Part shown: one piece after another, positions 13,974 through 16,378 of the stretch
How the letters are laid out: every line of letters starts with the position of its first letter
Numbering within the stretch: position 1 is the first letter of the stretch
NCBI RefSeq assembly: GCF_000737575.1
Contig: NZ_CP006270.1
Location: forward strand, 41,163 to 65,162
Direction of reading: 5' to 3'
DNA: 24,000 nt
From: Synechococcus sp. KORDI-49
GTDB lineage: Bacteria; Cyanobacteriota; Cyanobacteriia; PCC-6307; Cyanobiaceae
Made by a program: the position numbers and the translations under genes
The notes under the pieces: model-generated
What the model was told of the DNA's origin: nothing
What the model saw: only the letters and a program-made list of their open reading frames with translations
The model's database searches: none

Positions 13974-14486
13974 TTGATCCGGTTGTTCGGCGCTGAGGCA
14001 CTGAAGCAGGGAGGTGCGCTGATGGCACCGTTGCTGCTGCTCTCCATCGCTGTGCTCTCAGCAGGATTCGAGCGCCTGATCTACTGGCTGAGCTGGAGGC
14101 GGGAGCAGCCCGGTTGCCTCGATGCCCTCCGGACCTCCCTGTCAGGGCTGACCAACGCCGAAGCCAGCAGGGTGCTCGAACAGAAACTGCGCCGACTGGA
14201 TCGCCAATTCAGCCGCTGGGAGCCCAGCCTTGATCTGGCGATGGTGCTGGGTCCCCTGATGGGGTTGCTCAGCACGGTGCTGGGACTGATGAAACTTCTC
14301 CAGGCCCTCGGTCCGGATCTCCTGCTTCCCAGGGGGGAGACCCTGCTGTCGGATTACGGGACCATTCTGGTAGGCACGGCTCTCGGGCTGGTGGTGGCGA
14401 TGGTGGCGCTGCTGGTGCAGCGCATCAATCGCATGCAGCGCCGGTCCGTTGTGGCGCAGTTGCGCGAGGCCTGTCTGGAGGTCTGA
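13974..14486 (+). CDS. MotA/TolQ/ExbB-family proton-channel protein (170 aa from TTG; 154 aa from ATG 14022)
   Basis: Three predicted TM helices. 'KQGGALMAPLLLLSIAVLSAGFERLIYW', 'LGPLMGLLSTVLGLM' and 'GTALGLVVAMVALLVQRI' match the family signature helices (canonical APLLGLLGTVxG and ALxTTAxGLxVAIPA). The TTG start retains the conserved segment preceding TM1. Confidence 0.8.
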   Translation: MIRLFGAEALKQGGALMAPLLLLSIAVLSAGFERLIYWLSWRREQPGCLDALRTSLSGLTNAEASRVLEQKLRRLDRQFSRWEPSLDLAMVLGPLMGLLSTVLGLMKLLQALGPDLLLPRGETLLSDYGTILVGTALGLVVAMVALLVQRINRMQRRSVVAQLREACLEV

Positions 14487-14843
14487 ATGCCGCTTGTCCT
14501 CGCCCTCAGCGCTGTCACCGTGACGTTGACGACAGCCCTGGCACTGCTCCCGAGTGCTCTAAGAGAGACACCGATCGAGAGTCCAAGCGTCCCCCTGGTC
14601 GACAGCCAGGCCGAACGCTGGTTCGTTGTGCGCTCCTCCAGCGGCAGCTGGTATCTGAACGGCGAGCCGATGGCCTCCAATCTTCTGGCTCGGATCCTCA
14701 TGGGGCCGGACCTGCCTCCGGGTGGCGTCAGCTTCCTGCCGTCCAGTGCCAGATCGGCCTCGCTGGTGGCCGACGATCTGGCCTGGCTACAGAGCAACAG
14801 CGCTGGTCCGGTGCGTCTGCAGCTGGAGGAGATCCAGCTGTGA
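14487..14843 (+). CDS. divergent ExbD/TolR-like protein 1 (118 aa)
   Basis: The ATG directly follows the exbB-like TGA. It has a single N-terminal TM (MPLVLALSAVTVTLTTALALL). The ~90-aa periplasmic part, 'WFVVRSSSGSWYLNGEPMASNLLARIL...VSFLPSSARSASLVADDLAWLQSNSAGPVRLQL', follows the ExbD pattern: strand-turn-strand, L-N-G-x-P, then a slowly varying block ending in a V-x-L strand. It has no cytoplasmic tail and no TM Asp. Confidence 0.5.
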   Translation: MPLVLALSAVTVTLTTALALLPSALRETPIESPSVPLVDSQAERWFVVRSSSGSWYLNGEPMASNLLARILMGPDLPPGGVSFLPSSARSASLVADDLAWLQSNSAGPVRLQLEEIQL

Positions 14844-15196
14844 CCTCCTCCTCTCTGCGCTGGTCGGTCGGTTTCTCCCTGGTCGCCGTGTCCCAGCTGC
14901 TGCTGATCACGGGATTGATCGTTCTGCCCCAGTGGCGGGCCCAGATGTCTGCCCGGGATGGGGTGATCACCTTCTTCGTGGGTAGGGACGGTTCAGTCCG
15001 TCTCTGGAATCGCCCCATCGATGCGGCGGTGATGCCCGCCCTGGTTCAACGGGCCGAACGCTTCAACGCCACCGCCCGCGTGCGGCTGGTGGCGTCACCC
15101 GGGGTCACCTGGGGTGTGGTGCAGGACCTTGTCTCCCTTCTTGATCAGACATCACTCGATGTTGAACTTCAGCTCCCTCCGACAGCGCGCTCCTGA
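14840..15196 (+). CDS. divergent ExbD/TolR-like protein 2 (118 aa)
   Basis: The GTG start overlaps the preceding stop (GTGA). TM 'WSVGFSLVAVSQLLLITGLIVL' is followed by 'VITFFVGRDGSVRLWNRPIDAAVMPALVQRAERFNATARVRLVASPGVTWGVVQDLVSLLDQTSLDVELQL', which has the same ExbD-like layout as the gene before it. No TM Asp. Confidence 0.5.
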   Translation: MTSSSLRWSVGFSLVAVSQLLLITGLIVLPQWRAQMSARDGVITFFVGRDGSVRLWNRPIDAAVMPALVQRAERFNATARVRLVASPGVTWGVVQDLVSLLDQTSLDVELQLPPTARS

Positions 15197-15827
15197 GCTG
15201 CTGCTGCTCGCACTTCCCGTCGGCCTCTCTCTGGTTGTTCACAGCGTCTGGATCTCCAGAGACGGCGCTGAAAGCAGAGTGGGTGATTCGGACCAGAGCG
15301 TCAGCATCGACAACACCGCCCAGCTGGTGCGGATCACCCGACGGGCATCACAACAGCAGACGCTGGCTGCTGTGGGGTTGGATCTGAGCGGCACGCTTCC
15401 TCCCCCGGCTGCCGACGTGCTGCAGAAGATCGAGCTGCCTGACCCCAAGCCGGACTGCCCACCCCAGCAACAACGGGTGACCACCAAGGTGCTGCCGGAT
15501 GTCAGTGCACCAACGGCGATTCCGGCACCCCAGGAGCAGACGGCTCAGCGGCAGGAATCGGTCGTTGCAACGGCGCCGAGCGCGCCGTTGCAAGCGCTGG
15601 ACGGGGTCGCTCTCGATCGGCTGTGGGGACTGGCGATGGGGGTGCCGGTCTGGCCGGAAGACCTGCTGGGGCCGAAGCCGGTGATCGGAGAACTGCGGGA
15701 GCTCTCGCTCGACGACGTTGCCGACATGGATGCAACGGATCTTCATGAGCTCTCCGTTGAGGCGGAGTCCGGCACCTATCTGGTGAAGGTTTTCGGAGAC
15801 AGGGTTTTCCTGCTGAGAGAACCCTGA
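15159..15827 (+). CDS. TonB-like membrane-anchored protein: SxxxH anchor, Pro-rich spacer, unassigned C-terminal domain (222 aa)
   Basis: From ATG 15159 (38-nt overlap with the previous gene): 'MLNFSSLRQRAPELLLLALPVGLSLVVHSVWI'. A basic patch precedes a TM helix containing S-L-V-V-H (codons at 15228-15242), compared with E. coli TonB S-V-C-I-H. A Pro/Gln-rich stretch follows ('LPPPAADVLQKIELPDPKPDCPPQQQ...PTAIPAPQEQ', about 15391-15540), then a ~75-aa C-terminal domain without the TonB_C YP motif. Confidence 0.55.
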   Translation: MLNFSSLRQRAPELLLLALPVGLSLVVHSVWISRDGAESRVGDSDQSVSIDNTAQLVRITRRASQQQTLAAVGLDLSGTLPPPAADVLQKIELPDPKPDCPPQQQRVTTKVLPDVSAPTAIPAPQEQTAQRQESVVATAPSAPLQALDGVALDRLWGLAMGVPVWPEDLLGPKPVIGELRELSLDDVADMDATDLHELSVEAESGTYLVKVFGDRVFLLREP

Positions 15828-15898: not shown

Positions 15899-16378
15899 AT
15901 GCCCACTCTCCTGCTTCTGCTCCTCGCGTCGTGGCTTGGGGTGGGAACCGTGCAGGGGGGCGAGTGGTGCAGGTCTCAGGAGGGGGCGGTCGGCAGTTAC
16001 GACCCCGGACGGCAGGAGATCAACCTGTGCATGGAGCGGATCCGTGAGAAACAGCGATCCCCGATGGAAGTGGCGCGGCACGAGCTGTTTCATGCCGTGC
16101 AGCACCTGTTCGGGCGCAATGGCCGCAGTTTCCTCAGTGATGACCAGATCACGCCCCTGGTGCGCTGGCTGATGGACGACGGTGAAGTGATGGCCGTGCT
16201 CATGCTCTATCCCAGTGAGGAGATCAACAGCGAGCTGGAGGCACGTCTCGTGTCGCGATTGCTGCCCAATGAGGTCATCGGTGGTGCTCTGCTGGCAGGT
16301 CGGCTGCTCCAGGACGCACCACAGCAGGGACCGATCGGATCCTTGCGGGCCTACCTGCTCGGTCGCCCTGATTCCTGA
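15899..16378 (+). CDS. secreted small protein with an HExxHxxxH metal-binding-type motif (159 aa)
   Basis: Signal peptide 'MPTLLLLLLASWLGVGTVQG'; two Cys (C24, C44); 'VARHELFHAVQH' forms an HExxH zincin-like motif with a third His four residues later. It resembles the 'HELxHVxQ' core I recall from DUF4157. It lies on the same strand as the TonB-like gene, 71 nt downstream. Confidence 0.6.
   Translation: MPTLLLLLLASWLGVGTVQGGEWCRSQEGAVGSYDPGRQEINLCMERIREKQRSPMEVARHELFHAVQHLFGRNGRSFLSDDQITPLVRWLMDDGEVMAVLMLYPSEEINSELEARLVSRLLPNEVIGGALLAGRLLQDAPQQGPIGSLRAYLLGRPDS

What the first reader, a model, noticed from the sequence alone, without database searches (positions are those of the whole stretch)
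14487..15196. Both ExbD-like paralogues lack the transmembrane aspartate and the cytoplasmic tail
In ExbD, TolR and MotB a single Asp within the N-terminal TM helix is regarded as essential for proton-driven function (E. coli ExbD D25, TolR D23, MotB D32). Here the predicted TM helices are 'MPLVLALSAVTVTLTTALALL' and 'WSVGFSLVAVSQLLLITGLIVL', and neither contains an acidic residue. Protein 1 starts directly in the membrane with no cytoplasmic N-terminus. The periplasmic parts still follow the ExbD pattern and resemble each other, which suggests a tandem duplication. Either the stator uses a different ion-coupling residue, the proteins act as non-energised scaffolds, or my homology call is wrong.
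Basis: partly seen in the sequence, partly recalled or inferred. Interest (0 to 1): 0.6.

Follow-up and report, generated by a model that had tools for sequence, protein, structure and literature searches.

The report
ExbD pair without membrane aspartate
Two small genes next to an ExbB-type channel gene in a marine Synechococcus are true but very diverged ExbD proteins. Both have lost the membrane aspartate that every studied motor of this kind needs, as have their relatives across Cyanobium and Synechococcus, yet the genes are still conserved.

Summary
D1 (14487-14843) and D2 (14840-15196) have no Asp or Glu in their membrane helices, and neither ORF can be extended upstream. The ExbD call is also right. 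A sister clade of the same four-gene operon keeps the canonical Asp in both proteins, and its D1 passes Pfam ExbD. A profile of Asp-less D2 copies alone hits solved ExbD domains (E=4e-5). AlphaFold models of both proteins match ExbD and TolR periplasmic domains best.

The loss is a lineage trait. It holds in 60 D1 and 63 D2 copies from Cyanobium, freshwater Synechococcus and marine WH7803/WH8017. It also holds in about 50 of 56 family-level representatives among 1.84 billion proteins. The partner ExbB keeps both pore threonines, but its Glu176 equivalent has become variable (Thr here).

The genomes tested have no other ExbD, no TonB C-terminal domain and no TonB-dependent receptor. dN/dS is 0.13-0.57, so selection is purifying but weaker than in the Asp-bearing clade.

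My best reading (about 0.45) is a trans-envelope ExbB/ExbD1/ExbD2/TonB-like assembly that no longer uses proton-driven Asp cycling. A carboxylate-free ion pathway cannot be excluded. This is a new variant of a known kind. I found no published description.

The parts
13974..14486 (+). ExbB/TolQ/MotA-family channel subunit (170 aa), the only one in the genome
   Evidence: It scores 49 bits on Pfam MotA_ExbB, above the 22.9-bit cut-off, and is the single hit in the complete genome. The profile hits E. coli ExbB at 6e-16. Thr101 and Thr135 correspond to ExbB T148 and T181 and are invariant. The E176 equivalent is Thr here.
14487..14843 (+). ExbD1-like protein D1 (118 aa): membrane helix from residue 2, no cytoplasmic tail, Ser at the Asp column
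   Evidence: The sister-clade orthologue passes Pfam ExbD at 41-42 bits. The AF2 model has pLDDT 85.6. Its best PDB matches are the ExbD periplasmic domain (E=7e-3, probability 1.0, TMt 0.62) and TolR. The Asp column is shown.
14840..15196 (+). ExbD2-like protein D2 (118 aa): long membrane helix, Ala at the Asp column
   Evidence: A profile of Asp-less copies alone hits ExbD 8pek at E=4e-5. The AF2 model has pLDDT 90.5. Foldseek gives ExbD 8pek/8p9r at E=5e-5, TMt 0.78, rmsd 2.1 A.
15159..15827 (+). TonB-like anchor protein T (222 aa from ATG 15159): membrane helix with His, a conserved motif after the helix, a Pro-rich spacer and an unclassified C-terminal domain
   Evidence: It is the fourth gene in every locus. 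The helix carries H or N at one column. No Pfam family matches any of 24 members. hhalign of the C-terminal domain against TonB_C gives probability 0.2%.

Best explanation
Shown: D1 and D2 are the two diverged ExbD paralogues of a four-gene picocyanobacterial module, ExbB-like, ExbD1, ExbD2 and a TonB-like anchor protein. One lineage, which includes this genome, replaced the membrane Asp of both ExbDs with small or neutral residues. It also removed D1's cytoplasmic tail, shortened the ExbB cytoplasmic part by about 22-28 residues and relaxed the ExbB Glu176 position.

Inferred: the proteins still assemble like a 5:2 ExbB-ExbD complex with the TonB-like protein. The two Asp-less helices would sit in the ExbB pore, where the threonines are kept. 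The ExbD-fold periplasmic domains and the anchor protein would reach into the periplasm. Without a protonatable group, the complex cannot run the canonical Asp protonation cycle. It would then act as a passive envelope-spanning tether or scaffold with a structural, Tol-like or TonB2/SjdR-like role, not as a proton-driven energiser of outer-membrane transport.
For: Homology and fold.

Lineage-wide loss.

Single origin: in the ExbB tree clade B has support 0.99 and clades A+B together 1.0.

Co-variation in ExbB: Glu is kept in clade A and the outgroups, but is Q/D/M/T/E in clade B.

No carboxylate in trans and no Ton targets: the genome has no other ExbD, no TonB_C, no TBDT barrel and no Plug. 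Five other clade-B genomes give the same result for Plug and ExbD.

Still functional genes: ORFs are intact in more than 60 genomes. dN/dS is 0.13-0.57, against 0.05-0.10 for clade-A ExbB. Metatranscriptome contigs cover the operon.

Literature: in E. coli ExbD, 18 of 19 substitutions of D25 abolish all activity and D25E keeps 5-10% (bioRxiv 10.1101/2022.09.26.509584). Cyanobacterial TonB-like proteins with envelope rather than transport roles are known (PMC8262864, PMC8597729).
Against: No experiment addresses function. Both complex predictions fell below the mark and are uninformative.

Conservation of the pore threonines and of the helix sequences could equally mean that an ion path is retained.

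The Asp-bearing sister clade also lacks TBDTs and TonB_C. The unknown target is therefore the same in both clades, and loss of energisation is inferred from residues alone.

The RNA-library contigs may include DNA carry-over.
Confidence: 0.45

Rival explanations
1. The complex is still an ion-driven 5:2 motor. It would use a carboxylate-free pathway, such as the Ser/Thr/Gln pore residues and water, or the ExbB acidic residue where that is present.
For: Both ExbB pore threonines are invariant. The helices are conserved, with a small residue at the Asp column. Part of clade B keeps D or E at the ExbB-176 position. Selection is purifying.
Against: No candidate residue is conserved across the clade. 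The ExbB-176 position is Thr here, Met in L019 and Gln in many copies. The D or E at the D2 helix edge occurs in 28 of 63 copies and not in the window. Every studied ExbD, TolR, MotB and PomB needs the Asp (10.1101/2022.09.26.509584; established knowledge).
Confidence: 0.25
2. The genes are remnants drifting towards loss after the energised function became useless.
For: Constraint is relaxed compared with clade A. Distribution is patchy: 31 of 151 family genomes and 0 of 5 other genomes of the same genus. One locus (L021/L078) has a broken ExbB and a truncated D1.
Against: All four ORFs are intact, in conserved order with translational coupling, across many genera and about 50 clusters at 50% identity. 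dN/dS is well below 1. Periplasmic motifs are conserved. Synteny with gor is kept in marine strains.
Confidence: 0.1
3. An unrecognised Asp-bearing membrane partner encoded elsewhere supplies the proton-binding site.
For: Only that absence of evidence is not proof. Small membrane proteins are easily missed.
Against: No ExbD, TolR or MotB-like hit exists in a complete genome. The ExbB pore holds only two helices in all solved 5:2 complexes (PMC11658791).
Confidence: 0.05

Closest known systems
ExbB-ExbD (Ton) and TolQ-TolR (Tol) 5:2 proton motors of E. coli, Serratia and Pseudomonas
   Same: The gene order is a channel subunit followed by single-pass plug subunits. The ExbB family signature and both pore threonines are present. 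The periplasmic domains have the ExbD/TolR fold. A TonB/TolA-style anchor protein has His in its helix and a Pro-rich spacer.
   Different: Neither plug subunit has the membrane Asp (D25/D23). D1 has no cytoplasmic tail. The ExbB Glu176 position is not conserved. There are two different plug paralogues instead of a homodimer. The genome has no TonB_C domain and no TonB-dependent receptor.
The Asp-bearing picocyanobacterial sister operon (clade A, loci L025-L031) and other cyanobacterial exbB-exbD-exbD operons
   Same: They have the same four genes in the same order. D1, D2 and T are orthologous, and TBDT and TonB_C are also absent in the clade A genomes tested.
   Different: Clade A keeps Asp in both ExbDs, Glu in ExbB TM3, cytoplasmic tails and a longer ExbB cytoplasmic part. 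In some other cyanobacteria the first ExbD has Asn or Thr and the second keeps Asp (L042, L056). L046 and L059 show a single Asn-type ExbD in the fetched stretch.
Anabaena TonB-like proteins SjdR (TonB1) and TonB2
   Same: They are cyanobacterial TonB-style anchored periplasmic proteins whose mutants affect peptidoglycan or outer-membrane integrity rather than siderophore transport (PMC8262864, PMC8597729).
   Different: I found no sequence relationship to T. Their ExbB/ExbD partners are canonical as far as is known.

Membership tests
ExbD/TolR (Pfam PF02472) | Score above the Pfam gathering threshold | tested here: not met
   The window's D1 and D2 have no ExbD hit. Clade-A D1 scores 41-42 bits, above the 25.4-bit cut-off. 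Fourteen of 24 D2 members and 7 of 24 D1 members match at E<=1.
ExbD/TolR (Pfam PF02472) | Profile-level homology to solved ExbD | tested here: met
   The clade-B-only D2 profile hits 8pek at E=4e-5. The D1 profile with both clades hits 7ajq_F at E=1.4e-4. The clade-B-only D1 profile reaches only E=0.51, though ExbD is still the top hit.
ExbD/TolR (Pfam PF02472) | One N-terminal membrane helix plus the ExbD/TolR alpha-beta periplasmic fold | tested here: met
   The AF2 models have pLDDT 85.6 and 90.5. The top Foldseek PDB hits are ExbD and TolR.
ExbD/TolR (Pfam PF02472) | Conserved Asp in the membrane helix (ExbD D25, TolR D23) | tested here: not met
   The column is Ser7 in D1 and Ala16 in D2. 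It is G/A/S/T/V/M/P across the clade.
ExbD/TolR (Pfam PF02472) | Encoded directly after an ExbB/TolQ gene | tested here: met
   The starts abut or overlap the preceding stops. The order is the same in all loci.
MotA/ExbB/TolQ (PF01618) | Pfam threshold and pore Thr residues (ExbB T148, T181) | tested here: met
   The score is 49 bits. T101 and T135 are invariant and map to T148 and T181.
MotA/ExbB/TolQ (PF01618) | Conserved TM3 Glu (ExbB E176) | tested here: not met
   It is Thr in the window and Q/D/M/E elsewhere in clade B. Glu is kept in clade A and the outgroups.
TonB | N-terminal anchor with conserved His, and a Pro-rich spacer | tested here: met
   One helix column is H or N in nearly all aligned T sequences (L016 is the exception), and all have a PPPP-type stretch. 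H20N is functional in E. coli TonB (10.1101/2022.09.26.509584).
TonB | TonB_C domain (PF03544) | tested here: not met
   There is no Pfam hit in 24 members. hhalign gives probability 0.2%. The genome has no TonB_C.
Ton system (functional unit) | TonB-dependent outer-membrane receptors in the genome | tested here: not met
   The own genome has no PF00593 or PF07715. Ten related genomes have no Plug domain.
Tol-Pal system | TolA, TolB and Pal partners | not tested
   I did not search for these families. T shows no Pfam TolA match.

The most novel reading that the evidence does not exclude
A whole lineage of 5:2 ExbB/ExbD-type complexes still transduces energy, or moves, without any membrane carboxylate in the plug subunits. 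If so, the Asp protonation cycle is not the only way such motors can be coupled.
Probability: 0.2. Interest if true: 0.85.

Novelty: new variant of a known kind. Interest (0 to 1): 0.62.

Why it matters
The membrane Asp of ExbD, TolR and MotB is treated as the one indispensable element of all 5:2 ion-driven motors. This is a natural family in abundant aquatic picocyanobacteria in which both plug subunits lost it, yet the genes stay intact, conserved and apparently expressed.

An Asp-bearing sister clade provides a built-in control. The pair of clades makes it possible to ask what an ExbB/ExbD complex does when it cannot cycle protons, and what these modules do in cells that have no TonB-dependent receptors at all.

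Tried and rejected
- Direct Pfam, NCBIfam and PDB sequence searches of D1 and D2 found nothing.
- BLASTP of D1 against D2 found nothing.
- Complex prediction for D1+D2 and for D1+D2+T(1-90) scored 0.23 and 0.29, below the 0.32 mark, and is not evidence either way.
- The protein atlas gave only unnamed clusters for T.
- The search for related loci failed on the broad alignments and on the window protein. It worked with a narrower alignment.
- An alternative start codon that would supply an Asp is rejected because there is an in-frame stop directly upstream.
- An ExbB-D1 read-through fusion is probably not a conserved feature. In L007 and L009 the D1 start overlaps the ExbB stop by four bases, which puts it in another frame. 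I did not tabulate this junction across all loci.
- Recent horizontal acquisition is unlikely, because the gor-operon synteny is shared with WH7803 and WH8017.
- Literature searches found no description of Asp-less ExbD. The library is limited.

Full report
**Anatomy.** The + strand carries four translationally coupled genes:
- an ExbB-like gene, 13974-14486
- D1, 14487-14843, whose ATG directly follows the ExbB TGA
- D2, 14840-15196, starting in a GTGA overlap
- T, a single-pass Pro-rich protein, 15159-15827

The ExbB-like protein passes Pfam MotA_ExbB at 49 bits. D1, D2 and T match no Pfam or NCBIfam model. The genome is one 2.59-Mb contig, 99.98% complete. It holds only this one MotA/ExbB gene. 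It has no PF02472 ExbD, no TonB_C, no TBDT barrel and no Plug domain.

**Observation.** Neither membrane helix contains an acidic residue, and neither ORF can be extended upstream. D1 has one residue before its helix.

**Homology.** A scan of 151 genomes of the same family found the D2 gene in 31. In the 30 loci fetched from them, the ExbB-D1-D2 order is the same wherever the locus is complete, and a T-like ORF follows D2. The loci fall into two clades.
- Clade A (L025-L031) has the canonical ExbD motif with Asp in both D1 and D2, and cytoplasmic tails. Its D1 scores 41-42 bits on Pfam ExbD, above the cut-off. Its D2 scores 19-22 bits.
- Clade B (the window and L003-L024) aligns helix to helix with clade A but has G, A or S at the Asp column. 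The window has Ser7 in D1 and Ala16 in D2.

A D1 profile aligned to solved ExbD (7ajq_F, E=1.4e-4) puts D25 on that column. A profile of clade-B D2 copies alone hits the ExbD periplasmic domain 8pek at E=4e-5. The clade-B D1 profile alone gives only E=0.51, though ExbD is still the top hit.

The AlphaFold2 models have pLDDT 85.6 and 90.5. Their best PDB matches are ExbD periplasmic domains and TolR:
- D2: E=5e-5, TMt 0.78, rmsd 2.1 A
- D1: E=7e-3, probability 1.0, TMt 0.62

D1 and D2 are related to each other only at profile level: hhalign probability 86.7%, E=4.4e-6, 20% identity. BLASTP finds nothing. They are old paralogues, not a recent duplication.

**Extent of the loss.** Named loci show that clade B covers the following:
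- Cyanobium usitatum and C. gracile
- freshwater Synechococcus and Vulcanococcus
- marine Synechococcus WH7803 and WH8017

The two marine strains share the gor-ExbB-D1-D2-T-HExxH synteny with the window.

None of 60 D1 copies has D or E in the helix. In D2, 28 of 63 copies have an acidic residue, but only at the cytoplasmic-edge position of the helix segment, about two turns from the canonical site in the one copy I indexed. The window's D2 has none.

A full HMMER search of 1.84 billion representatives with the D1 profile gave 147 hits. Among the 56 full-length representatives with E below 1e-10, about 50 have G/A/S/T/V/M/P at the Asp column and five have Asp. The generic ExbDs further down have Asp, except four that have Asn.

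In an ExbB tree, clades A and B together have support 1.0 and clade B has 0.99, so a single loss is likely. The nearest outgroup operons in other cyanobacteria sometimes have Asn or Thr in the first ExbD and Asp in the second.

**Changes in the partner.** Mapped on E. coli ExbB, the window's Thr101 and Thr135 correspond to T148 and T181 and are invariant. The E176 position is Glu in clade A and the outgroups. In clade B it is Q, D, M, E or, in the window, T. Clade-B ExbB also lacks about 22-28 cytoplasmic residues.

**The fourth protein.** T has, in order:
- a helix with H or N at one column
- a conserved acidic motif after the helix
- a Pro-rich stretch
- a conserved C-terminal domain of about 75 residues

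This matches TonB logic: in E. coli, H20N is functional (10.1101/2022.09.26.509584). The C-terminal domain, however, matches no Pfam family in 24 members. It shows no profile similarity to cyanobacterial TonB_C (probability 0.2%).

TonB_C was found in 79 of 121 cyanobacterial genomes but in 0 of 7 of this family. Ten clade-A and clade-B genomes have no Plug domain. Five clade-B genomes have no other ExbD.

**Are the genes alive?** Nei-Gojobori dN/dS values:

| Gene | Clade B | Clade A |
|---|---|---|
| ExbB | 0.13-0.55 | 0.05-0.10 |
| D1 | 0.18-0.56 | 0.12-0.26 |
| D2 | 0.17-0.57 | 0.16-0.34 |
| T | 0.25-0.56 | 0.15-0.43 |

Selection in clade B is purifying but relaxed. The pairs compared are few and not independent.

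Marine metatranscriptome assemblies contain the operon. One 2978-nt contig spans 13134-16111 at 99.2% identity. This is consistent with transcription, although DNA carry-over cannot be excluded.

**Mechanism.** In E. coli, 18 of 19 substitutions of ExbD D25 abolish all activity, and D25 is held to be the only PMF-responsive residue of the system (10.1101/2022.09.26.509584; PMC11658791). By that rule the clade-B complex cannot run the canonical cycle. No replacement carboxylate is conserved in ExbB, D1, D2 or T.

I therefore favour a complex that still assembles but works passively as an envelope-spanning tether or scaffold. This step is inferred. Precedents exist in the cyanobacterial TonB-like proteins that act on peptidoglycan or outer-membrane integrity (PMC8262864, PMC8597729).

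Retention of the pore threonines keeps a carboxylate-free ion path possible. Both complex predictions fell below the mark and carry no weight.

**Novelty.** Literature searches found no description of Asp-less ExbD or TolR families. I class this as a new variant of a known kind.

Noticed in passing
window 15899-16378: A small secreted HExxH protein follows the T gene. Homologues at 51-54% identity sit in the same position in Synechococcus WH7803, WH8017 and one MAG. None was found in the freshwater Cyanobium loci fetched. It may be a marine-specific accessory of the module.
   Followed up: partly
L042:935-1375, L056:1318-1743, L046:1309-1716, L059:1312-1719: In other cyanobacteria the first ExbD after ExbB has Asn or Thr at the Asp column. 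A second ExbD, where present (L042, L056), keeps Asp. In L046 and L059 only the Asn-type ExbD was seen in the fetched stretch. L042 and L061 have a periplasmic-binding-protein-like ORF downstream, which looks PstS-like by eye and was not tested.
   Followed up: partly
proteins P0111, P0127, P0129, P0140: Four generic ExbD representatives from the 1.84-billion-protein library carry Asn instead of Asp in an otherwise canonical helix motif. Their origin and context are unknown.
   Followed up: no
window 14484-14489: ExbB and D1 are in the same frame, separated by a single TGA. In L007 and L009 the D1 start overlaps the ExbB stop by four bases, in a different frame. The in-frame junction is therefore probably not a conserved feature, but I did not tabulate it across all loci.
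   Followed up: partly
L021 / L078 (Synechococcus sp. CS-1330): This copy of the operon looks damaged. The ExbB frame is disrupted, D1 is truncated at the N-terminus and T is only 71 aa. It may be an example of ongoing loss, or an assembly error.
   Followed up: no
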